7,142 bases of DNA, from positions 2,130,363-2,137,504 of the forward strand of contig CP070760.1 of the NCBI GenBank assembly GCA_020348965.1. Reading direction: 5' to 3'. Both the position numbers and the translations under genes were made by a program. The notes beneath the pieces were generated by a model. It was not told the origin of the DNA, did no database searches, and was given only the letters and a program-made list of their open reading frames with translations. Position 1 is the stretch's first letter. The number at the start of each line of letters is the position of its first letter. Positions 413 through 7,031 of the stretch are shown piece after piece. The DNA is from Candidatus Heimdallarchaeota archaeon (GTDB lineage: Archaea > Asgardarchaeota > Heimdallarchaeia > Hodarchaeales > Hodarchaeaceae).

Positions 413-3085
413 TCAATTCCCTTCTCCCATAATGAGAAGATAATCTCCAGTTTGTAATTGTGCAATTGAACACACTAAGGTGGTGAGGTCTGTTTTTAGG
501 GTTACTTTCACACCATTCAAAGGATTTGTGGTCTTATGATGTAGGGTAAAACCTTTTGAGGTCATTAATCTTGCCCACCGTGATAACTCCGATTCTGAAT
601 AAGTTATAGTTCTTATTGATTTTACTTTAATTCTAGAAGCCGATTCAAATAACAAGTTACGTTCCAGAATATCTGATTTAAGAGAATCAGGTAAAGGACT
701 TGTTTGTATATCAATTAGCAGCTCGTTAAACCAGTTAGTGTCGATATCTATGAGTTCTTCAGTTTCTTCATGAGAAAGAAAATCTAAGTCTTCAGTTGTT
801 GGATCGGCTGCAGCTGGTTCTATCCCTAATTCTTCAGGGATAGTTTCTTCAAATTCTTCGCTCCCAAGATCAATTATTGGTTTATGGGTGATGAAAGGAG
901 GTAATGTTCGATTTCCATCAGTGAGAACGAGAATCCCCTCCCGTAGATAGAAGATAATGGCCTCTGTTATTTCACGATAACTATATTCAGAGTCAAAAAG
1001 ACATTGATTGACAATCTCCTCTACAAAAAGGCCTTCAGTTATCGCGAGCTGATCAATTTGACCACTAATGACCTTATACAACGTTGGAAAAGGAATCTCT
1101 TGTTTATAAGCGCGATTAATCTGAATAGGTGTAATTAATGAAAGACCTAGATGATAATCAAGAAGTCCAATGGCAGGACGAAAGGCATCAAGAACACCAA
1201 CAAAATCTTCGAGTTTCTTGTGAAAATCTGTTTCAAAAACGTAGGAAAAGTTTCTTAATCTCTGTTTTAAGGTGTTTAAATATTTAGGAGTCCGATCGAG
1301 AATAATAGCTGTAACAGAGTGGTTCCCCTCCACCGTTACAATCTTAAAAGCACGATCTCCAATCTCTTCAGTGAAAATTCGTAAAATTGTACGTTTTTGA
1401 ACGAGGTCGTTTTTAAGTTCACTAAAAAGCCCTGAAATCGCGCTAAGAAATCCTGAAACAAGTTGAGGATCGATTTTTAGCATTGTGATTCCAAGTTCGA
1501 AAATGCAAATACCAGTTTTCTTATGAAGAATTAATATATGTTTACATGCTAGTAAATTAGTTAGATCTTGATGACTATATGGTGCAACTTCAATAGAAGG
1601 AGGTTCGATGTCCTTCTGTTCAATATCGGTTGAAATATCTGGTTCAATTTCCGAAGGAGTAGGAACTTCTTTTAATATAATTTTACCTAATTGAGGTTGA
1701 TATGTGGGGATGTTTTCAGGCATCTCATCTTCTTGAGGATCGATATGTTTAGACAAACGTGGACGGACACGAATCTTAATTGGTCGATGGCTTCCACCAT
1801 GTAATCCGACAATTAGAGCTTCTCCACGGACAAGATGAGGCAATATTGACACCGTTTCAGTACTTATTCCCTCCATCAGTCGAATTTTCGTAATATCCTT
1901 GTCAGATCTTATTCTGAGTGCGATCAATGTGTTCATATTTGCTACAATGTTATCAGGTAAATCACCAGGTCGTTGGGAGATAAGGATTTCATGAATACCA
2001 AATTTTCTTCCTTCCCGTGCAATACGAGGGAGGATCTCGTTTGTGTTGGCAAATCGATGTGCTTCCTCGATAACAAGTATGATTTCATGTTCTCGTGCAA
2101 GCTCTCCCTGAAGTTTTTTCTCAAAAACCTGAGTAAGGATTTCATTTACTAACAGATTTCGTTTCCTTTCATCAATAAATTGGTCTAATCGGATAATCGA
2201 AATTCGTCCAGGCTGTATTAAGGCATCTAAATCAAGTTCTTTTTCAAATAATCTCAAGTTTTCCAAGGAATAGATCTTTGAAATCAGATTTTCTCGTGTT
2301 GAACTATGGATGTCTGAATCTCGAATTAAAGACATCAAATCGTCCAGTAAGAGTGGCTCCTTTATGATATTCAATAAAGAATTTTCTTGCGCGGCGGTTA
2401 AACTGATTAATCTACGTAGTTTTGGCAGATTAAAACGGGTTCCTAGTCCTAATGACTCTTTTTCAAAAACTAAAACATTCTCCAGAAATCCACGAGGAGA
2501 ATAATCCTCAAAATTCAGGTATTCAATCTCTGGGCCATCATTCTGCTGTGTTAATCCCCAATACTCATTGTGAGTATCAAATAACATGACTGCAGCTGAT
2601 TTAAACTTCATTAGAATCTCTTCTAGCAACACAGCTACAGTATATGATTTTCCTGCTCCAGTGCTAGCAACACAGAGTACATGTCGTTCTAGAAAATCAG
2701 GTGAGATAAGAAAGGGGTCAGTTTGATTGTTGAAGGTTATTATGTCCCCTAGATAAATACCATTGTCACCACGATATGAAATAATCTTTGAAACTAGTCC
2801 TTCTGGAGGATGTCTGATTTGGGCTTCTGGAGATACGGGGAAGCGACAGGGGGAGAGTGCGAAATCTTTGAGATCAATTTCCCCAAGAATAATTGCTGTT
2901 CCTTTGATTTCCTCACCCTTCGTTTGAATCAAGTTAGAGACTTGAGCTAAGTATTGCTTTTGAGGGGTTTTTTTCAAATCATTAATTAAAATAAAATCTT
3001 GTTCATTAATAGACGTTTCAGCTGCAACAATACGAAATGAAATCTCTGATGTTGAGGATTTAATTACTTCCATTGTTTGAGACAA
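413..3085 (-). CDS. Multidomain HerA/DUF87-family (FtsK-HerA superfamily) P-loop ATPase. It is fused to a longin/roadblock-like domain, a possible winged-helix module and an uncharacterised C-terminal domain.
   Basis: Uninterrupted 890-codon ORF. Walker A is VASTGAGKSYT (aa 139-149, nt ~2645-2668). The HerA-typical MLFDTHNEY follows. Walker B is EIILVIEEAHRF (nt ~2057-2083), and the HerA-like REGRKFGIHEILISQRPGDLPDNIVANMNTLIALRI is present. The N-terminal ~130 aa resemble a HAS-barrel. The track start at 3085 is TTG; the in-frame ATG at 3073 (MEVIKSS...) is the more likely start. Confidence 0.85.
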   Translation of the reverse strand: MSQTMEVIKSSTSEISFRIVAAETSINEQDFILINDLKKTPQKQYLAQVSNLIQTKGEEIKGTAIILGEIDLKDFALSPCRFPVSPEAQIRHPPEGLVSKIISYRGDNGIYLGDIITFNNQTDPFLISPDFLERHVLCVASTGAGKSYTVAVLLEEILMKFKSAAVMLFDTHNEYWGLTQQNDGPEIEYLNFEDYSPRGFLENVLVFEKESLGLGTRFNLPKLRRLISLTAAQENSLLNIIKEPLLLDDLMSLIRDSDIHSSTRENLISKIYSLENLRLFEKELDLDALIQPGRISIIRLDQFIDERKRNLLVNEILTQVFEKKLQGELAREHEIILVIEEAHRFANTNEILPRIAREGRKFGIHEILISQRPGDLPDNIVANMNTLIALRIRSDKDITKIRLMEGISTETVSILPHLVRGEALIVGLHGGSHRPIKIRVRPRLSKHIDPQEDEMPENIPTYQPQLGKIILKEVPTPSEIEPDISTDIEQKDIEPPSIEVAPYSHQDLTNLLACKHILILHKKTGICIFELGITMLKIDPQLVSGFLSAISGLFSELKNDLVQKRTILRIFTEEIGDRAFKIVTVEGNHSVTAIILDRTPKYLNTLKQRLRNFSYVFETDFHKKLEDFVGVLDAFRPAIGLLDYHLGLSLITPIQINRAYKQEIPFPTLYKVISGQIDQLAITEGLFVEEIVNQCLFDSEYSYREITEAIIFYLREGILVLTDGNRTLPPFITHKPIIDLGSEEFEETIPEELGIEPAAADPTTEDLDFLSHEETEELIDIDTNWFNELLIDIQTSPLPDSLKSDILERNLLFESASRIKVKSIRTITYSESELSRWARLMTSKGFTLHHKTTNPLNGVKVTLKTDLTTLVCSIAQLQTGDYLLIMGEGN
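1136..1573 (-). other. Internal longin/roadblock-like domain (aa ~505-650) of the HerA-like protein, paralogous to the C-terminus of the 2..337 ORF.
   Basis: The DPQLVSGFLSAI motif was verified at nt 1436-1471 by reverse-complement translation. The hydrophobic pattern read by eye (ILILHKKTGICIFEL / DPQLVSGFLSAISGLFSEL / ILRIF..FKIVTVEG..VTAIILD / YLNTLKQRLRNFSYVFE) suggests a beta-beta-alpha-beta-beta-beta-alpha order. The exact family name was not determined. Confidence 0.5.
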
Positions 3086-3229
3086 CCATTTAAAGCTGAA
3101 ATGACTTACTTCTTATCTAATAGCTACTTTAATCTGATTAATTGTTTTAACCTTTTCCTTTAGAATCTGTATAACTATTTTTTTCTCAATAGTTGATTGA
3201 TTACCAAAGAATTTCTGTTATTCATTCCC

Positions 3230-3245
3230 GCAAAAAGTTAATAAT
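3230..3245 (+). promoter_or_regulatory. Candidate BRE/TATA promoter for trxB.
   Basis: Purine-rich GCAAAAAG (3230-3237) is followed by TTAATAAT (3238-3245). The box centre lies ~25 nt upstream of ATG 3266, which is consistent with a leaderless or near-leaderless mRNA. Confidence 0.4.
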
Positions 3246-3265
3246 TAGATCTTCTTACTCACAAC

Positions 3266-4279
3266 ATGAAATCACCTAATTCCTTTTTAGGTGGAGAGTA
3301 CCCTATAATGGGAAGTACGTCTGATAATAACAAATTTGATATGGTTATCATTGGTGCTGGACCAGCAGGTATGGCGGCTGCTATTTATGGGTCACGTATG
3401 GGTTGGAAAACAATAGTACTCGATAAAGAAGCAGTTGGAGGGTTAGCAGCTACCACTCCCATTATAGAAAACTATCCCGGTTTTTCAGAAATTACTGGTC
3501 TCGAGTTTGCAGAGAGATTAAGAAAACAGGCGGAAAAATTTGGAGCAGAGATCCGAGAATTGGTAGAAGTGACGGAAGTAAAAGCTGATCAGGTTCCACT
3601 CGAAGTAGTCACGACCACGGGTAATTTCATCGCAAAAGTTGTCATTATTGCGACTGGGACAGCTCATCGTCACTTAAATATTCCAGGAGAAGAAGAATTT
3701 GAAGGAAAGGGAGTTTCTTATTGTGCTACGTGTGATGGTCCATTATACAAGGCTAAAAAAGTTGCAGTTGTAGGAGGTGGAAACTCAGCTGTTACAGAGG
3801 CTCTGTATCTGAATAATGTGGTCCGAGAAGTTCACTTAATTCACCGTCGGGATCGATTACGAGCTGATGAATCACTTCAGAGAGAAATTCTCAACAATTC
3901 AAATGTTAATTTCGTCTGGGACTCAGTTATAGAAGAAATTCAGGGTAGCGAAACAGGGGGAGTCAAAAAAATCTCAATAAAGAATGTGAAAACTGAAGAA
4001 ATCAGTTCTCTTCGTGTAAAAGCGGTTTTTGTTGCCATTGGTATATCTCCTAACAATGAATTGGCCAAAAAACTTGGAGTTGAACTTACCGAAGAAGGGT
4101 TAATCAAGGTTGATAGTAAGCAACGTACCAGTATTCCCCGAATTTATGCCTGTGGTGACATTACTCCTGGTCAAGGACAGATCTCAGTCGCAGTAGGAGA
4201 AGGGACAACTGCTGCAATCTCGGCTTTCCTTGATATGAAAGGTGGGGATTGGTATGGGGAAGAAGTAAGTAATGGTTGA
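3266..4279 (+). CDS. trxB: Thioredoxin-disulfide reductase, low-molecular-weight NADPH-type TrxR.
   Basis: FAD motif DMVIIGAGPAGMAAAIYGSR. Redox-active CATC at nt 3722-3733 (SYCATCDG). NAD(P)H motif VAVVGGGNSAVTEALYL followed by HRRDRLRA. C-terminal GDITPG...AVGEGTTAA. The start is ambiguous. ATG 3266 lies ~25 nt after a TATA-like box, implying a leaderless transcript. ATG 3308 (MGSTSDNNKFDMVIIG) follows AGGTGGAG at 3289-3296 and gives a more typical N-terminal length. Confidence 0.93.
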   Translation: MKSPNSFLGGEYPIMGSTSDNNKFDMVIIGAGPAGMAAAIYGSRMGWKTIVLDKEAVGGLAATTPIIENYPGFSEITGLEFAERLRKQAEKFGAEIRELVEVTEVKADQVPLEVVTTTGNFIAKVVIIATGTAHRHLNIPGEEEFEGKGVSYCATCDGPLYKAKKVAVVGGGNSAVTEALYLNNVVREVHLIHRRDRLRADESLQREILNNSNVNFVWDSVIEEIQGSETGGVKKISIKNVKTEEISSLRVKAVFVAIGISPNNELAKKLGVELTEEGLIKVDSKQRTSIPRIYACGDITPGQGQISVAVGEGTTAAISAFLDMKGGDWYGEEVSNG

Positions 4280-4791
4280 TAGTAATATTGGACCACACAC
4301 TACCATCGCATTCCGTTGCCATAGATAGAGTATCAGCTCATTTCAGTGCTGCTCACGCTTTAAAAACAAGTCAATACGAAGAGGGTCTCCACGGTCACAA
4401 TTATCAAGTTGAAATGGAAATCGGGGGAAAGATGGATACTGAAGATCTTGTCGTTGACTTTGTATTCTTGGAGGATCTCCTGCAACAAATTCTTTCACAA
4501 TGGGATCATTATGTCCTCATGCCAATGAATAATACATATGTGACACTCTCCGAGAATGACGATAATCTCGAAATTCAGTATGGAAACCGTTTTTATTCCA
4601 TTCCAAAGAGGGAGATCAAGCTGCTAAACTGCGTAAATGTTACAACGGAAGCATTGTCTCGCTTATTGGGAGAGAAAATTCGAGCTCAGTTAAAAAAGGA
4701 GAATTTATGGGATAGGATCCAGAGTATTAGAATAACAATTTGGGAAACATCTTGTTACCGCGCTACTTATTCCATTGGCTCCACTTCTTAA
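4276..4791 (+). CDS. COG0720 / 6-pyruvoyl-tetrahydropterin synthase (PTPS/QueD) family protein lacking the catalytic Cys. Candidate PTPS-III/VI-type enzyme forming 6-hydroxymethyl-dihydropterin.
   Basis: Family signature FSAAHAL...EEGLHGHNYQVEMEIGG (Zn-binding His residues), DLVVDF, WDHYVL and TTEALSRLLGEKI. The position of the QueD Cys (Cx3HGH) holds Glu (E35-E36-G-L-HGH). There is no ATG. The ORF starts at TTG 4276 (or TTG 4288) and overlaps the trxB stop as TTGA. Confidence 0.82.
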   Translation: MIVILDHTLPSHSVAIDRVSAHFSAAHALKTSQYEEGLHGHNYQVEMEIGGKMDTEDLVVDFVFLEDLLQQILSQWDHYVLMPMNNTYVTLSENDDNLEIQYGNRFYSIPKREIKLLNCVNVTTEALSRLLGEKIRAQLKKENLWDRIQSIRITIWETSCYRATYSIGSTS

Positions 4792-5575
4792 TAAAACAAG
4801 TCAATTTAACTTTAGGAAATCCAGAAATTGACTGTCCCTGACAAGTTAGATTAAAACGAAGTCCTTTATGTTGGGAATGATAAGATGCTAACAATTTACG
4901 TGCGATCTTGAATTTTTCAAGCTTTTTCCTTTTTGATTTTTTTATGGGTGAATCTAAAGTACTATATCGACCAATGATATACCCAAAATCAAAACCAATT
5001 AGTCCAATCAATGGAGATTGAAAATGAAAGGCCAAAAAAATTGCACGATCCCCATCTGTAAACCCACCAAAATTTAGAAGTACTTGGCCTGGTTCACATT
5101 GTGTGGTTCCCCATACGTAGTTATTGGAAATTATTTCCGAATTTTGAGTAATAAACCGAGAAATCTGCTGTTTATTGTCACCGTGAGCATGAATTAATGT
5201 TAAGGCTCCATTATTGATGGCCCATCTAATCGATTTCCAATCACCATCCAGATCAGTGACAACTATTGATGGGACAATATTTTCATTTCGTAGAAATGTT
5301 GTAGCACCATCAACAGCGATTGAGCGAAGATTGGACATAATCTCAGTAGAAAAAAGTGTTGATACATCTTCCTCCAAAGAGGGGCCAGCTCCTGCAATAA
5401 TCACTGGTTCTTGAAGAATTGCTTTTAATTTTTGGAGTATTTTTTCTTTTTTAATTGGCATTAACTCGATTAAAAACTCCTTCAATAACTGTGCTGATCG
5501 TTTATCTGCTTCTGTGTTAAAACCTAATTGTTGCATGATTTGAAAATACTCATTCTTCCAGTCTTGCCAATTCAT
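4763..5575 (-). CDS. mptE: MptE-like (DUF115 family) 6-hydroxymethyl-7,8-dihydropterin diphosphokinase.
   Basis: 270-codon ORF with ATG at 5575-5573 and TAG at 4765-4763. Motifs recalled from the DUF115/MptE family: VIIAGAGPSL, AVDGAT...VPSIVVTDLDGD, LIHAHGDN, GGFTDGDRAIFLA and GLIGFDFG. The assignment is from memory of family motifs, not a search. Confidence 0.75.
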   Translation of the reverse strand: MNWQDWKNEYFQIMQQLGFNTEADKRSAQLLKEFLIELMPIKKEKILQKLKAILQEPVIIAGAGPSLEEDVSTLFSTEIMSNLRSIAVDGATTFLRNENIVPSIVVTDLDGDWKSIRWAINNGALTLIHAHGDNKQQISRFITQNSEIISNNYVWGTTQCEPGQVLLNFGGFTDGDRAIFLAFHFQSPLIGLIGFDFGYIIGRYSTLDSPIKKSKRKKLEKFKIARKLLASYHSQHKGLRFNLTCQGQSISGFPKVKLTCFIKKWSQWNK

Positions 5576-5607
5576 CGGAAAAATCTCGGGTTGACAGTAA
5601 TTAATCA

Positions 5608-5615
5608 GATATTAA
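5608..5615 (-). promoter_or_regulatory. Candidate TATA box for the mptE-like gene.
   Basis: The minus strand reads TTTAATAT ~36 nt upstream of ATG 5575. The background is AT-rich, so this is weak. Confidence 0.3.
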
Positions 5616-5701
5616 AGCGAGGAAAAGTTGTCTGGTAGTTATTTAAACACTTCAAAAAGAAAAATCCGAAGAATCATTAAACATTTTTATCCACCATAGA
5701 C

Positions 5702-5709
5702 TATTTAAA
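5702..5709 (+). promoter_or_regulatory. Candidate TATA box for the 5S transcription unit.
   Basis: TATTTAAA would place a TSS near 5730, upstream of the leader. Alternatives are TTATTTAAAC at 5638-5647 and ACTAATAA near 5746-5753. Unresolved. Confidence 0.25.
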
Positions 5710-5776
5710 GGCTCTTGAAAGCGCTCATCTTGGTTTTTAGTATTACTAATAACAACAAGACGCCACCAACATGTGA

Positions 5777-5795
5777 GATTCTGCCGGAAGTTAAG
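5777..5795 (+). other. Leader-side strand of a bulge-helix-bulge (BHB)-like processing motif at the 5' boundary of the permuted 5S.
   Basis: GAUUCUG (5777-5783) pairs with CAGGGUC (5911-5917): 7 bp, 2 G.U. CCGG (5784-5787) pairs with CCGG (5904-5907) as a 4-bp central helix. AAG (5788-5790) is unpaired. GUU (5790-5792) can pair with AAC (5901-5903), so the inner helix is weak and this site is relaxed. Confidence 0.55.
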
Positions 5796-5909
5796 TTAGG
5801 CTCCGTTTCGATCTGTACTGTCGTGCGCGAGCCAACGGGAACATCGAAAAGCTGAGTATTGCTCGGCCAAAGGGCCTGAGATACACCCGGTCTCATTCCG
5901 AACCCGGAA
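5790..5909 (+). rRNA. rrf: 5S rRNA gene with circularly permuted gene order. The 3' half (helix II 3' strand, helices V/IV, loop E) lies at 5790-5856, a capping pentaloop at 5857-5861, and the 5' half (helix I 5' strand, loop A, helix II, helix III/loop C) at 5862-5909.
   Basis: G+C-rich island in AT-rich DNA. 5883-5909 reads ACACCCGGUCUCAUUCCGAACCCGGAA, the universal helix III/loop C. 5790-5849 reads GUUAAGUUAGGCUCCGUUUCGAUCUGUACUGUCGUGCGCGAGCCAACGGGAACAUCGAAA, a close match to the remembered archaeal helix V/loop E/helix IV (GUACUG..GUGCGCGAGCC..GGGAA). All helices pair across the permuted order: helix I 5851-5856/5862-5867 (6 bp), helix II 5872-5879/5796-5803 (8 bp, 2 G.U), helix III 5887-5890/5904-5907, helix V 5806-5812/5843-5849 (7 bp). 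Confidence 0.85.
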
Positions 5910-5917
5910 ACAGGGTC
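5901..5917 (+). other. Trailer-side strand of the BHB-like motif at the 3' boundary of the permuted 5S.
   Basis: A 3-nt bulge AAA (5908-5910) lies exactly between the 4-bp CCGG/CCGG helix and the 7-bp outer helix. CCGGAA is directly repeated at 5784-5789 and 5904-5909, spaced 120 nt apart. Confidence 0.55.
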
Positions 5918-5936
5918 CCCTTGTTATTAGGCGTAA

Positions 5937-5952
5937 TTTTTCCTTTTTCTTT
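5937..5952 (+). terminator. Oligo-T archaeal-type termination signal downstream of the 5S locus.
   Basis: TTTTT (5937-5941), CC, TTTTT (5944-5948), C, TTT (5950-5952), on the + strand ~30 nt after the 5S 3' boundary. Confidence 0.5.
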
Positions 5953-6065
5953 GTAAAAGATTTCCCAATAGATTTCATCGTCAAAATCTTTATCATCACA
6001 TAATTATTATCAAAATTAATAATCACTCTTGGAGTATAAATAGAAAGATCTGTAGTTCTCTAATC

Positions 6066-6073
6066 TTTAATAT
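6066..6073 (+). promoter_or_regulatory. Candidate TATA box for the SNM1-like gene, with an alternative TATAAATA at 6035-6042.
   Basis: TTTAATAT would give a TSS near 6095 and a ~25-nt leader containing the SD. TATAAATA at 6035-6042 would give a ~55-nt leader. Confidence 0.3.
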
Positions 6074-6106
6074 GTCCCGTACGTAACCTGAATGGATTTC
6101 TCACCA

Positions 6107-6114
6107 AAGGAGGA
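6107..6114 (+). promoter_or_regulatory. Shine-Dalgarno-like ribosome-binding site for the SNM1-like gene.
   Basis: AAGGAGGA, 5-6 nt upstream of ATG 6120. Confidence 0.6.
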
Positions 6115-6119
6115 ATGTA

Positions 6120-7031
6120 ATGGTATTTTCTACAATCGCTCAAAGTTACTTTGATGAATTTCCATTTCGGCGGGCCGATCACCGAAAAACGTCTACAGAC
6201 TTTTATTTCCTGTCGCATGCACACTCTGATCATACTTCAGGTCTTCGGTTAAGTTTATCTGATCCTGATGCAATCATTGTTTGTTCTAAGGAAACATCAG
6301 CAGTCATTAAAGTTCTTTTTGGAATTCCTAAGGAGAAATGCCTGATTATCAGCCCTAATCAATCCCTTGATTTTGATAAATATACTGTTCATGCATTAGA
6401 TGCCAACCACTGCTTGGGCAGTTTAATGTTTGTAATTGAATCAAAAAAAGGCCTAAAGGAAGTTTATACCGGGGATTTCAGGTTGGGCAAGCCGATTCTT
6501 GATGAGCTAAATCTAATTCAGGGAGCAAATCATATGTGGCTTGACTATACGTATGGAACCAACGATATATTCAAATTTCCCTCTCGTGAAGAAATGATTT
6601 CAGAAATGATCTCTTTAATCTTATCAGAAGACAATTATCCTTCGAGAGATATCTGGATTGCTGCTTATCAGGTTGGTAAAGAACTTCTTCTAAAAACAAT
6701 AAGTGAGGCCTTGAAAGTTAAAATTTGGGCTTCAGATGTTAAAGTAAGAATCTATAAAGAAATTGGTGGAGAATGGGATATTTTCACTAATGACACAGAT
6801 TCGGGGGTGTTCGTTGGAAGTCGTAGAATGGTGGAAAGATTACACGGTATTAATAAGGATGGCCAAACGAGAATGATAGATGCTTTACGCATCTCACCAA
6901 CAGGTTGGTCGGCACGATTACGTAAGAAACGTTTGGATGTGCATTTCTTTCCTTACTCTGATCATTGTTCGTATTCAGAGGTTCATGAATTCATCAAAAT
7001 CGTTAAGGCAAAAAATCTCACGAAAATCTAA
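6120..7031 (+). CDS. SNM1/PSO2/Artemis-like (DRMBL-type beta-CASP) metallo-beta-lactamase-fold nuclease, compact 303-aa form.
   Basis: Motif series typical of the SNM1 clade: FDEFPF...DFYFLSHAHSDHTSGL (HxHxDH), DANHCLGSLMF, YTGDFR, WLDYTYG...FPSREEMI, YQVGKELLL and C-terminal FPYSDHCSYSEVHEFI (DRMBL PYSEHSS-like). The strong SD AAGGAGGA at 6107-6114 lies 5 nt before the ATG. The protein ends about where beta-CASP motif C would be expected, so that motif is not visible. Confidence 0.82.
   Translation: MVFSTIAQSYFDEFPFRRADHRKTSTDFYFLSHAHSDHTSGLRLSLSDPDAIIVCSKETSAVIKVLFGIPKEKCLIISPNQSLDFDKYTVHALDANHCLGSLMFVIESKKGLKEVYTGDFRLGKPILDELNLIQGANHMWLDYTYGTNDIFKFPSREEMISEMISLILSEDNYPSRDIWIAAYQVGKELLLKTISEALKVKIWASDVKVRIYKEIGGEWDIFTNDTDSGVFVGSRRMVERLHGINKDGQTRMIDALRISPTGWSARLRKKRLDVHFFPYSDHCSYSEVHEFIKIVKAKNLTKI

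What the first reader, a model, noticed from the sequence alone, without database searches (positions are those of the whole stretch)
5790..5909. Circularly permuted 5S rRNA gene: 3' half encoded upstream of the 5' half, with helix I capped by a pentaloop
Read on the + strand, the locus first encodes the part of 5S that normally follows loop C: GUUAAG, the helix II 3' strand, then helices V, IV and loop E. The two helix I strands (GCUGAG/CUCGGC) are then joined by a UAUUG loop where the natural 5' and 3' ends should be. Only after that come loop A, the helix II 5' strand and the universal CCCGGUCUCAUUCCGAACCCGGAA hairpin. Every helix of the canonical three-way junction can still form across this rearranged order, including G.U and compensatory pairs, which argues against a decayed pseudogene. 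No colinear 5S can be read from either flank. Known precedents for permuted RNAs include permuted tRNA genes (Cyanidioschyzon, Thermofilum), permuted SRP RNA in Thermoproteus, permuted 23S rRNA in Pyrococcus and permuted organellar 5S. I am not aware of a permuted 5S gene described in an archaeal chromosome.
Basis: seen in the sequence. Interest (0 to 1): 0.9.

Follow-up and report, generated by a model that had tools for sequence, protein, structure and literature searches.

The report
Circularly permuted 5S rRNA gene
In Hodarchaeales, an Asgard archaeal group regarded as close kin of eukaryotes, the 5S ribosomal RNA gene is encoded back half first, and flanking sequences look built to cut the transcript out and probably join its ends, which would explain why standard annotation misses this gene.

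Summary
Window 5790-5909 (+) encodes every 5S rRNA element in rotated order: helix II 3' strand, helices V and IV, helix I closed by a small loop, loop A, helix II 5' strand, then helix III and loop C.

- **Model test.** Rfam's 5S model gives only two sub-threshold pieces in swapped order. A model built from ordinary archaeal 5S RNAs rotated in silico hits 5790-5909 full length at 104.8 bits. The same sequences unrotated give 35 bits.
- **Conservation.** The arrangement recurs at the same syntenic position in 14 distinct loci (about 17 contigs) of Hodarchaeales/Heimdall-group archaea. In 13 aligned loci 98% of cells pair, and 13 base pairs change on both sides.
- **Transcription unit.** The gene has its own TATA-like box, a leader of about 60 nt (inferred) and a trailer before T-runs. 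Leader and trailer form a covarying processing stem.
- **Cleavage motif.** Next to the gene the stem holds a bulge-helix-bulge-like motif (CCGGAA on both strands). Symmetric cleavage and ligation would restore the universal ...CCCGGAA-GUUAAG... junction.

Best reading: a functional permuted 5S gene whose RNA is excised by the tRNA-splicing endonuclease and probably circularised. I found no published description. Circularisation and the absence of a colinear copy remain untested.

The parts
5701..5727 (+). Promoter-like region. It has a TATA-like box (TTTAAA at 5704-5709, 86 nt upstream of G5790) followed by the conserved block GGCTCTTGAAAGCGCTC.
   Evidence: An A/T-rich TATA-like box lies 80-105 nt upstream of the gene in 11 of the 13 loci scanned and by eye in the window and L133. 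It is followed by G(G/A)CTCTTGAA in most of them. The promoter function is inferred, not shown.
5760..5764 (+). Distal leader strand (ACGCC) of the extended leader-trailer stem. It pairs with 5930-5934.
   Evidence: RNAduplex places leader and trailer in the same register in all 13 loci. The distal helix sequence differs by lineage but stays complementary: GCGCC/GGCGC, ACGCC/GGCGU, GUUGCG/CGCAAC, CGCUUA/UAAGCG, CUUUCC/GGAAAG and GACAU/AUGUC.
5775..5783 (+). Leader strand (GAGAUUCUG) of the 9-bp outer processing helix. It pairs with 5911-5919.
   Evidence: In one search, 91.5% of cells pair and three pairs change on both sides (U-A/C-G, U-A/A-U/C-G, C-G/U-A). The 3' partner slid by 1-3 columns gives 20-49% paired.
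5784..5787 (+). Leader CCGG, a copy of the helix III strand. It can pair with 5904-5907 to form the 4-bp central helix of a bulge-helix-bulge-like motif.
   Evidence: Cofolding of mini-substrates gives the outer helix, an AAA bulge and a 4-bp helix in the 6 loci with CCGG or CUGG. In L125 the leader reads CUGG and the trailer strand CCAG, a compensatory change. In 7 of 13 loci the fourth pair is A.C.
5788..5789 (+). Leader bulge AA. The predicted 5' cleavage site is between A5789 and G5790.
   Evidence: AA is invariant in 13 of 13 loci. The cleavage position is inferred from the geometry of the motif.
5790..5909 (+). Circularly permuted 5S rRNA gene of 120 nt. The order is helix III-extension 3' strand, UAAG, helix II 3' strand, helices V and IV with loop E, capped helix I, loop A, helix II 5' strand, then helix III and loop C.
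   Evidence: Rotated model R1 gives 104.8 bits full length, E = 4e-23. Unrotated model R2 gives 35 bits and Rfam at most 20.8 bits. The minimum-energy fold is the 5S three-way junction. After rotation the sequence is 65-74% identical to colinear archaeal 5S.
5851..5867 (+). Helix I closed as a hairpin. 5851-5857 pairs with 5861-5867 and the cap is 5858-5860 (AUU). The natural 5S termini would lie here.
   Evidence: Four of the 7 pairs change on both sides across relatives. Examples are GCUGAG/CUCGGC, GCUGAAG/CUUCGGC, GCUGGG/CCCGGC and AACGGG/CCCGUU. The loop sequence is not conserved (UAUUG, GUU, UUUUA).
5887..5907 (+). Helix III and loop C (CCGGUCUCAUUCCGAACCCGG).
   Evidence: Rfam aligns 5885-5909 to model positions 27-51 with all pairs standard. 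Pair 122-140 covaries once, in L125.
5908..5910 (+). AAA, a 3-nt bulge on the trailer strand between the central and outer helices. The predicted 3' cleavage site is between A5909 and A5910.
   Evidence: AAA is invariant in 13 of 13 loci. It is unpaired in the cofold structures.
5911..5919 (+). Trailer strand (CAGGGUCCC) of the outer processing helix.
5930..5934 (+). Distal trailer strand (GGCGU). It pairs with 5760-5764.
5937..5952 (+). T-rich run (TTTTTCCTTTTTCTTT), the likely archaeal transcription terminator.
   Evidence: T-runs begin 16-54 nt (28-54 nt in 12 of the 13) after the 5S 3' end in the 13 loci. The terminator function is inferred.

Best explanation
Window 5790-5909 is the functional 5S rRNA gene of a Hodarchaeales (Heimdall-group Asgard) archaeon, encoded in circularly permuted order. 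It most likely arose from a tandem duplication followed by loss of the outer halves. The leader still carries the CCGGAA that ends helix III.

The gene is transcribed on its own, from a TATA-like promoter about 86 nt upstream to a T-run about 28 nt downstream. In the precursor the leader and trailer pair into a long processing stem. At the base of the stem, next to the gene, the leader CCGG pairs with the CCGG that ends the gene. Unpaired A's lie 3' of that helix on each strand. This is a bulge-helix-bulge-like motif of the kind cut by the archaeal tRNA-splicing endonuclease EndA.

Cleavage in both bulges, followed by RtcB ligation, would join A5909 to G5790. That recreates the universal ...CCCGGAA-GUUAAG... 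connection and yields a 120-nt covalently circular 5S rRNA. The natural ends of that RNA are replaced by a 3-nt loop on a 7-bp helix I.

What is shown: the permuted order, its conservation, the covariation in all helices and in the leader-trailer stem, and the motif geometry. What is inferred: transcription limits, EndA cleavage, ligation, and incorporation into the ribosome as a circle.
For: - **Permutation.** Rotated model R1 scores 104.8 bits full length at exactly 5790-5909. Colinear genes score 16-46 bits with the same model. Unrotated model R2, built from the same sequences, scores 35 bits on the window and 108-137 bits on colinear genes. Rfam gives two swapped partial hits.
- **Reality and selection.** The same gene lies between the DRMBL-family and MptE-like genes in 14 distinct loci (about 17 contigs) from NCBI genomes, JGI metagenomes and Logan assemblies. 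Identity of the neighbouring MptE-like protein falls as low as 46%. R1 scores on these loci are 84-107 bits.
- **Covariation.** Over 46 pairs, 98.0% of cells pair and 13 pairs change on both sides. None of 500 shuffles reached the observed value for percent paired, pairs changed on both sides, cells changed on both sides or the covariation score; the count of further pair types was matched in 268 of 500. Slid controls give 26-49% paired.
- **Processing stem.** The outer helix 5775-5783/5911-5919 has three pairs that change on both sides. Leader-trailer duplexes fall in one register in all 13 loci, with a lineage-specific complementary distal helix.
- **Central helix.** L125 changed the leader (CUGG), the helix III 5' strand (CCUGG) and the 3' strand (CCAG) together. 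Cofolding forms an outer helix, a 3-nt bulge and a 4-bp helix in the CCGG-type loci.
- **Junction.** Both strands read CCG(G/A)AA, so any two-fold symmetric pair of cuts gives the same product, the canonical GGAAGUUAAG. This follows directly from the sequence.
- **Precedent.** The permuted Thermoproteus SRP RNA is repaired in exactly this way (PMC4731332). Archaeal 16S and 23S precursors are circularised at the same kind of motif in leader-trailer stems (PMC8339473).
- **Capping helix I is tolerated.** An engineered E. coli 5S with its native ends joined by a tetraloop is functional (PMC7283268).
- **Detection failures in the literature.** 5S genes 'could not be predicted' in closed Heimdallarchaeum genomes (PMC8813620). 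The Ca. Hodarchaeum mangrovi description lists no 5S (10.1101/2020.10.19.343400).
Against: - No RNA data were available. The transcript ends, cleavage and circular junction are all unobserved.
- The motif is not canonical. The leader-side bulge is only 2 nt if G5790 pairs with C5903.
- In 7 of 13 loci the fourth pair of the central helix is A.C (leader CCGA), and their cofold minimum-energy structures do not form that helix.
- The central helix competes with helix III of the mature fold.
- The inner helix GUU/AAC never varies, so it carries no covariation signal.
- Leader-trailer duplex z-scores against shuffles are modest, from -0.2 to -4.0. The fold energy of the 120-mer is not unusual (z = -1.6).
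- One metagenome contig, L129, lacks the leader strand of the outer helix.
- Whole genomes could not be scanned, so a second, colinear 5S copy cannot be excluded.
- R1 and R2 were trained on sequences chosen because they share the window's 23-mer in helix III and loop C. This inflates absolute scores, though not the rotated-versus-unrotated contrast.
Confidence: 0.6

Rival explanations
1. It is a functional permuted 5S gene, but the mature RNA stays linear and permuted. The leader-trailer stem only guides nucleolytic trimming. The ends at G5790 and A5909 remain an unligated nick in the internal loop between helix III and its 2-bp extension, held together by helices II and III. The brown-algal mitochondrial permuted 5S is likewise permuted in the final product.
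For: - The 120-nt linear sequence folds on its own into the complete three-way junction.
- The bulge-helix-bulge-like motif is imperfect, and degenerate in 7 of 13 loci.
- Permuted mitochondrial 5S rRNAs function as linear permuted molecules (PMC4267664).
Against: - A plain trimming stem does not explain why the leader keeps CCG(G/A)AA invariant next to the gene.
- It does not explain why the L125 leader co-varied with helix III.
- It does not explain why the predicted cuts restore the universal junction sequence with exact spacing.
- EndA products (2',3'-cyclic phosphate and 5'-OH) are normally ligated by RtcB in archaea. This rests on established knowledge and PMC4731332.
Confidence: 0.28
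2. The RNA is circularised as above and then re-opened in the helix I cap. This would give a conventional linear 5S with normal termini. Permuted tRNA genes of Cyanidioschyzon and circular pre-16S/23S rRNA intermediates are handled this way.
For: - Circular intermediates that are re-linearised are the textbook route for archaeal 16S and 23S rRNA (PMC8339473).
- They are also the route for permuted tRNAs (cited in PMC4267664).
- The P. furiosus 23S rRNA is circularised and then opened elsewhere (PMC7758197).
Against: - The cap is only 3-5 nt on a 7-bp helix, and its sequence is not conserved (UAUUG, GUU, UUUUA).
- No spacer or processing signal sits at the cap.
- Helix I is about 1-2 bp shorter than in colinear 5S (alignment), so opening it would leave a weak helix.
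Confidence: 0.08
3. It is a non-functional relic (pseudogene) or an assembly artefact, and the working 5S is a colinear gene elsewhere in the genome.
For: Whole genomes could not be scanned here. Rfam finds nothing at gathering score at this locus.
Against: - The locus recurs in 14 distinct loci (about 17 contigs) from different projects and assemblers, including megabase-scale contigs.
- 98% of cells pair, and compensatory changes occur in helices I, II, III, IV and V.
- Loops C and E are invariant.
- A conserved TATA-like box, a processing stem and downstream T-runs are present in all 13 loci examined.
- Others failed to find 5S in closed Heimdall-group genomes (PMC8813620).
Confidence: 0.03

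Closest known systems
Permuted, circularised SRP RNA of Thermoproteus tenax/uzoniensis (Plagens et al. 2015, PMC4731332)
   Same: - An essential structured RNA gene in an archaeal chromosome is encoded in rotated order.
- It has its own TATA promoter and a short leader.
- Leader and trailer fold into a bulge-helix-bulge motif at the new termini.
- Cleavage by the tRNA-splicing endonuclease and ligation restore the functional connectivity.
- The old termini are replaced by continuous sequence.
- The gene had been 'missing' from annotation.
   Different: - The RNA here is 5S rRNA, and the lineage is Asgard (Hodarchaeales) rather than Thermoproteales.
- The motif is less canonical, with a 2-nt bulge on one side and an A.C pair in many relatives.
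- The central helix is built from a duplicated copy of the gene's own helix III strand.
- No RNA or enzyme data exist for this case.
Excision and circularisation of archaeal pre-16S and pre-23S rRNA at bulge-helix-bulge motifs, including the permuted 23S of Pyrococcus furiosus and circular 23S in ribosomes (PMC8339473, PMC7758197, PMC12918454)
   Same: - A leader-trailer processing stem carries a bulge-helix-bulge motif next to the mature RNA.
- Processing by EndA and RtcB gives a circular rRNA.
- In some lineages the circle, or a permuted form of it, is what sits in the ribosome.
   Different: - Those genes are colinear, and any permutation arises only at the RNA level.
- These papers state that 5S rRNA is not processed this way (PMC12918454).
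- Here the permutation is in the gene, and ligation is needed to regain the canonical order.
Permuted mitochondrial 5S rRNA of brown algae and other stramenopiles (Valach et al. 2014, PMC4267664; Rfam mtPerm-5S)
   Same: - It is a 5S rRNA whose helix I is replaced by a closed hairpin.
- Standard 5S models miss it.
   Different: - It is organellar.
- Its new ends lie at the loop A junction between the alpha and gamma domains, not between helix III and helix II.
- Its domain order is otherwise kept.
- It has no leader-trailer stem or bulge-helix-bulge motif.
- It stays linear.
Circularly permuted tRNA genes (Cyanidioschyzon merolae; cited in PMC4267664)
   Same: The 3' half is encoded upstream of the 5' half, and the order is repaired through a circular RNA made at a bulge-helix-bulge-like motif.
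   Different: The circle is re-opened by RNase P and tRNase Z at an intervening sequence. Here the 3-nt cap offers no such spacer.
Engineered circularly permuted 5S (cp5S) in E. coli (Huang et al. 2020, PMC7283268)
   Same: The native 5S ends are joined by a small loop and the molecule still works in the ribosome.
   Different: It is artificial. The new ends were placed in loop C or loop D and fused to 23S rRNA.

Membership tests
5S rRNA (Rfam RF00001) | Three-way junction with helices I-V | tested here: met
   All helices form. Over 46 pairs, 98% of cells pair across 13 sequences, and 13 pairs covary on both sides. The minimum-energy fold is the Y-shape.
5S rRNA (Rfam RF00001) | Universal sequence motifs: loop C with helix III (CCGGUCUCAUUCCGAACCCGGAAGUUAAG), loop E (GUACUG...GGGAA) and loop A | tested here: met
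   The Rfam alignment of 5885-5909 to model positions 27-51 is a near-perfect match. The 23-mer is shared with many archaeal and actinobacterial 5S genes. After rotation the sequence is 65-74% identical to colinear archaeal 5S.
5S rRNA (Rfam RF00001) | Colinear gene order, with the 5' and 3' ends forming helix I, and a score at or above the gathering threshold of 38 bits | tested here: not met
   There is no hit at gathering score. Partial hits score 20.8 and 18.9 bits in swapped order. Colinear model R2 scores 35 bits against 108-137 bits for colinear genes. It is 5S by structure and sequence but not by gene topology.
Permuted archaeal RNA genes repaired by bulge-helix-bulge cleavage and ligation (Thermoproteus SRP RNA type) | Gene halves in rotated order, with the old termini closed | tested here: met
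   R1 gives a full-length hit at 5790-5909. Helix I is capped by 3 nt.
Permuted archaeal RNA genes repaired by bulge-helix-bulge cleavage and ligation (Thermoproteus SRP RNA type) | Leader and trailer pair to form a bulge-helix-bulge motif: a central 4-bp helix flanked by at least one 3-nt bulge (definition in PMC4731332) | tested here: inconclusive
   The outer helix covaries. The trailer AAA bulge and the 4-bp CCGG/CCGG helix are present in 6 of 13 loci. In 7 of 13 the fourth pair is A.C. The leader-side bulge is 2 nt, or a 3x1 loop.
Permuted archaeal RNA genes repaired by bulge-helix-bulge cleavage and ligation (Thermoproteus SRP RNA type) | Cleavage by the tRNA-splicing endonuclease and a ligated circular junction seen in RNA | not testable with these tools
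   No RNA-seq or enzyme data were accessible. The predicted junction is A5909-G5790.
Permuted mitochondrial 5S (mtPerm-5S type) | A 5' hairpin replaces helix I, new termini lie at the alpha/gamma (loop A) junction, and the beta and gamma domains stay colinear | tested here: not met
   The break lies between helix III and the helix II 3' strand, in the beta domain. The Rfam E-value scan listed only RF00001 pieces; overlapping hits from the same clan would be suppressed.

The most novel reading that the evidence does not exclude
Hodarchaeales are reported as the closest archaeal relatives of eukaryotes (title of Eme et al. 2023, cited in PMC12918454, plus my own knowledge). On this reading they have no colinear 5S gene at all. 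Their ribosomes would carry a covalently circular 5S rRNA, made by tRNA-splicing-type excision and ligation of a permuted precursor. This would be the first natural circular 5S rRNA and the first permuted 5S gene in a cellular chromosome. The same or a similar arrangement may also explain the 'missing' 5S in other Heimdall-group genomes such as Heimdallarchaeum.
Probability: 0.45. Interest if true: 0.9.

Novelty: new variant of a known kind. Interest (0 to 1): 0.85.

Why it matters
5S rRNA is one of the most conserved and most easily annotated genes in biology. Its order of helices has been treated as fixed outside a few organelles.

- **A whole order has rotated the gene.** These archaea sit next to the eukaryotic stem, and they have kept the rotated gene under purifying selection. 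This shows that the connectivity of 5S is evolutionarily negotiable in free-living cells.
- **It extends splicing-type RNA repair to the third rRNA.** Current reviews say that 5S is not processed through bulge-helix-bulge motifs.
- **It has a practical consequence.** 5S is one of the rRNA genes reported when metagenome-assembled genomes are called high-quality drafts (for example PMC9723677). Rfam- or barrnap-based annotation will report it as absent in this lineage, and gene callers place spurious ORFs over the locus.
- **It offers a natural test case** for how a circular or nicked 5S assembles with uL5 and uL18 into the central protuberance.

Tried and rejected
1. **Wasted genome scan.** I spent the single genome-contig scan on the 23-mer CCGGTCTCATTCCGAACCCGGAA. 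The hits served only as colinear control 5S genes. As a result the taxonomic spread in reference genomes, and the presence of a colinear copy in the same genomes, could not be tested.
2. **Failed look-ups.** Exact look-up of the window's own MptE-like protein failed. So did look-up of the Ca. Hodarchaeum mangrovi homolog.
3. **Heimdallarchaeum not reached.** L137 is a possible Heimdallarchaeum-related contig found through a distant MptE homolog; the attribution is a guess from its NCBI 'Pacearchaeota' label and PMC8813620. It has no synteny and no R1 hit. Whether Heimdallarchaeum also has a permuted 5S stays open.
4. **Poor alignment.** The long-flank MAFFT alignment A2 misplaced the L130 insertion and the non-homologous distal flanks. 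I replaced it with the trimmed alignment A3 and with per-sequence duplex folding.
5. **Intron idea rejected.** I asked whether the 30-nt insertion in L130 is a bulge-helix-bulge intron. No such motif can be drawn, because both candidate bulges fall on the same strand, and RNAfold does not produce one.
6. **Bulge-helix-bulge in the native fold rejected.** In the mature fold, helix III has no bulge on the opposite strand. The motif needs the alternative leader:trailer pairing.
7. **Fold energy not used as evidence.** The z-score is only -1.6.
8. **tRNA scan.** ARAGORN found no tRNA or tmRNA in the window.
Full report
**What is in the sequence.** Read on the + strand, window 5790-5909 contains every element of an archaeal 5S rRNA in rotated order.
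- 5790-5795: GUUAAG.
- 5796-5803: helix II 3' strand.
- 5806-5812 with 5843-5849: helix V.
- 5813-5842: loop E, helix IV and a GCGA loop.
- 5851-5867: helix I closed as a hairpin.
- 5868-5871: loop A.
- 5872-5879: helix II 5' strand.
- 5883-5909: helix III and loop C, including the near-universal ACCCGGUCUCAUUCCGAACCCGGAA.

The region stands out from its roughly 31-37% G+C surroundings at about 47% G+C in 200-nt windows, or 54% over the 120-nt gene itself.

**Covariance-model tests.** Rfam finds no family at gathering score in the window. In E-value mode it reports two sub-threshold 5S pieces in swapped order. One is 5885-5909, matching model positions 27-51 at 20.8 bits. The other is a forced global alignment of 5744-5859 at 18.9 bits, whose real match is the 3' half.

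Rotated sequence cannot be submitted to Rfam here, so I made the reciprocal test.
- I took 13 ordinary colinear archaeal 5S genes, which score 63-103 bits with Rfam, and rotated them in silico after CCCGGAA.
- I aligned them and built a model, R1. RNAalifold recovered helices II, V, IV, I as a hairpin, and III.
- R1 hits the window at exactly 5790-5909 (+), covering model positions 1-122 of 122, at 104.8 bits and E = 4e-23.
- The colinear genes, in their genomic order, give only split hits of 16-46 bits with R1.
- The same 13 sequences modelled unrotated (R2) give 108-137 bits on colinear genes and 35.0 bits on the window.

One caveat applies. The training sequences were found through a 23-mer shared with the window, which inflates absolute scores. 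It does not affect the rotated-versus-unrotated contrast.

**Organism and conservation.** The flanking genes are archaeal: a HerA-like helicase, a thioredoxin-reductase-like protein, PTPS, an MptE-like kinase and a DRMBL-family metallo-beta-lactamase. The MptE-like protein is 100% identical to an NCBI protein from a 'Candidatus Heimdallarchaeota archaeon' contig of 3,155,959 bp. Its closest homologs are labelled Hodarchaeales, Hodarchaeota or Promethearchaeota.

I fetched the contigs that encode homologs at 46-66% identity. In every syntenic case the same permuted 5S lies in the DRMBL-MptE intergenic region. This holds for L001, L002, L123, L125, L126/L127, L128/L129, L130/L131 and L138. In L130/L131 the gene is inverted relative to its neighbours. 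A metagenome scan with a pattern that only a permuted order can satisfy returned five more loci, L132-L136. R1 scores all of these at 84-107 bits. Rfam detects no 5S at gathering score in any of the 12 loci scanned. The arrangement is therefore not a misassembly. It appears in assemblies from several projects, including megabase-scale contigs.

**Covariation.** I aligned 13 distinct sequences from leader position -17 to trailer position +13, with the L130 insertion removed. The proposed mature fold plus the outer leader-trailer helix has 46 pairs.
- 98.0% of cells form standard pairs.
- 13 pairs, comprising 37 cells, change on both sides.
- None of 500 column shuffles reaches the observed values for percent paired, both-side changes or the covariation score; the count of further pair types was matched in 268 of 500.
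- Sliding the 3' partners by 1-3 columns drops pairing to 26-49%.

Compensatory changes occur in helix I (4 of 7 pairs), helix II, helix V, helix IV and helix III. Examples for helix I are GCUGAG/CUCGGC, GCUGAAG/CUUCGGC, GCUGGG/CCCGGC and AACGGG/CCCGUU. The pair U5857-G5861 also covaries (U-G 8, G-C 4, U-A 1). The cap is therefore a triloop rather than a pentaloop, and its sequence is not conserved. The pattern fits a functional RNA and not a pseudogene.

**A dedicated transcription unit with a processing stem.** A TATA-like box lies 80-105 nt upstream in the 13 loci examined. In the window it is TTTAAA at 5704-5709, 86 nt upstream. It is followed by a conserved G(G/A)CTCTTGAA block. T-runs start 16-54 nt downstream (28-54 nt in 12 of the 13); in the window they span 5937-5952.

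The leader just upstream of the gene (GAGAYNYUG, 5775-5783) is complementary to the trailer (CARRRYCYC, 5911-5919). Three of the nine pairs change on both sides. RNAduplex puts leader and trailer in the same register in all 13 loci and extends the stem with a distal helix. The sequence of that helix differs by lineage but stays complementary: ACGCC/GGCGU in the window at 5760-5764/5930-5934, and elsewhere GCGCC/GGCGC, GUUGCG/CGCAAC, CGCUUA/UAAGCG, CUUUCC/GGAAAG and GACAU/AUGUC. This is the architecture of archaeal 16S and 23S processing stems (PMC8339473).

**The bulge-helix-bulge-like motif and the predicted junction.** Between the outer helix and the gene, the leader reads CCGG-AA (5784-5789). 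That is the same six bases that end the gene (5904-5909). CCGG is a palindrome, so the leader copy can pair with the 3'-terminal copy to make a 4-bp central helix. Unpaired A's then lie 3' of the helix on each strand: AA(G) in the leader and AAA (5908-5910) in the trailer. An inner helix forms from GUU (5790-5792) and AAC (5901-5903).

This has the two-fold symmetry of a bulge-helix-bulge motif. [quoted passage not shown]

Support for the motif:
- Cofolding of mini-substrates yields an outer helix, a 3-nt bulge and a 4-bp helix in the six loci with CCGG or CUGG leaders.
- In L125 the leader (CUGG), the helix III 5' strand (CCUGG) and the 3' strand (CCAG) changed together.

Weaknesses of the motif:
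- In 7 of 13 loci the leader is CCGA, giving an A.C fourth pair, and the cofold minimum-energy structure does not form the helix.
- The leader bulge is 2 nt if G5790 pairs with C5903.
- The inner helix is invariant, so it gives no covariation signal.
- The central helix competes with helix III.

Both strands read CCG(G/A)AA. Any symmetric pair of cuts followed by ligation therefore gives the same product...CCCGGAA-GUUAAG... This is exactly the Rfam consensus junction (CggAAguUAAG) and yields a 120-nt circle. The leader CCGGAA also looks like the remnant of an upstream 5S copy. That fits an origin by tandem duplication and loss of the outer halves (inference).

**Mechanism and alternatives.**
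- **Favoured (0.6 overall).** The precursor is cut by the tRNA-splicing endonuclease in the two bulges and ligated by RtcB, giving a circular 5S with a capped helix I. The core claim, a functional permuted gene with a processing stem, is above 0.9. The circularisation step is about 0.5-0.6.
- **Main rival (0.28).** The ends are left unligated as a nick, and the linear permuted RNA is held together by helices II and III.
- **Re-opening at the cap (0.08).** The 3-nt unconserved loop has no spacer, which makes this less likely.
- **Pseudogene or artefact (0.03).** The conservation and covariation data argue strongly against this.

An engineered E. coli 5S with its native ends joined by a tetraloop works in ribosomes (PMC7283268), so capping helix I is structurally tolerable.

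**Comparison with what is known.**
- **Thermoproteus SRP RNA.** The permuted, circularised SRP RNA of Thermoproteus is the closest mechanistic analogue (PMC4731332).
- **16S and 23S rRNA.** Archaeal 16S and 23S precursors are circularised at bulge-helix-bulge motifs. P. furiosus 23S is permuted at the RNA level, and circular 23S has been reported in ribosomes. The same literature states that 5S is not processed this way (PMC8339473, PMC7758197, PMC12918454).
- **Circular 5S-derived RNAs.** These have been seen in Halobacterium and Sulfolobus. They come from colinear genes, have heterogeneous junctions and are interpreted as degradation products (PMC12558985).
- **Brown-algal mitochondrial 5S.** This permuted 5S breaks at loop A, stays linear and has no processing stem (PMC4267664).

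**Novelty check.** Full-text searches for permuted or circular 5S in archaea, Asgard or Hodarchaeales found no description. The library does not cover most subscription journals.

Three published remarks are consistent with the finding:
- Wu et al. [quoted passage not shown]
- The Ca. Hodarchaeum mangrovi description lists only a 23S gene.
- Kariarchaeum, Borrarchaeum and Jordarchaeum genomes report a 5S.

**Limits.**
- No RNA data were available.
- Bulge-helix-bulge recognition by the Hodarchaeales endonuclease is untested.
- Taxonomic spread beyond the sampled Hodarchaeales-like lineages is unknown.

Noticed in passing
L130 2662-2810 (+) and L131 1-135: In this lineage the permuted 5S is inverted relative to its DRMBL and MptE neighbours. 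It also carries a hairpin insertion of about 30 nt (AGAUAUGAAGGAAUAUCUUCAUUCCGGGAA) exactly at the 2-nt bulge of the helix III 3' strand. Two independent assemblies show it. No bulge-helix-bulge intron could be drawn, so it may be an expansion segment.
   Followed up: partly
L126 about 2612-2685 (- strand), compared with L127: L126 has a 37-bp tandem duplication covering helix III, loop C and the trailer outer strand (CCGGTCTCATTCCGAACCCGGAAACAATATCCCCTGG, twice). The near-identical L127 lacks it. This is either real heterogeneity or an assembly artefact.
   Followed up: no
L128 2483-2608 and L129 2498-2617: L128 has a 6-nt tandem duplication (CTGTTG) in the helix IV 5' strand, and its R1 score drops to 95.8 bits. 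L129, from the same JGI project, lacks 16 nt of leader, including the outer-helix strand. Both may be assembly errors or population variants.
   Followed up: no
window 5705-5896 (-) and 5796-6026 (-); L126 2662-2904; L127 1244-1486; L138 2-184: Open reading frames of 60-80 aa with no Pfam hit overlap the unrecognised 5S gene. In the public records, gene callers annotated some of them as proteins. They are probably spurious.
   Followed up: partly
window 5710-5757 and the equivalent leader regions of all loci: A conserved block lies after the TATA-like box: G(G/A)CTCTTGAA..GC(G/C)C, then (C/T)TGGTTTGTA. A small leader hairpin follows, with a stem that differs between lineages (for example GUAG...CUAC and GUUUG...CAAAC). 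Its function is unknown. It may mark the transcription start or be a further processing element.
   Followed up: no
window 413-7031 and all related loci: Gene order is strictly conserved as MutS_V-domain protein, DRMBL-family protein, 5S, MptE-like, PTPS, thioredoxin-reductase-like, then an 870-890-aa HerA/DUF87 protein. This holds in relatives whose MptE-like protein is as little as 46% identical. The PTPS and MptE-like genes converge and overlap by about 29 nt (4763-4791).
   Followed up: no
L138 1-123: A 147-kb contig of GCA_016840035.1 ends 3 nt after the 3' end of the permuted 5S. This may be coincidence, or the locus may be hard to assemble through.
   Followed up: no
loci (for example L003, L009, L018): The 23-nt helix III and loop C sequence CCGGTCTCATTCCGAACCCGGAA is identical in many Actinobacteria and in diverse archaea. 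It is useless as a lineage marker.
   Followed up: yes
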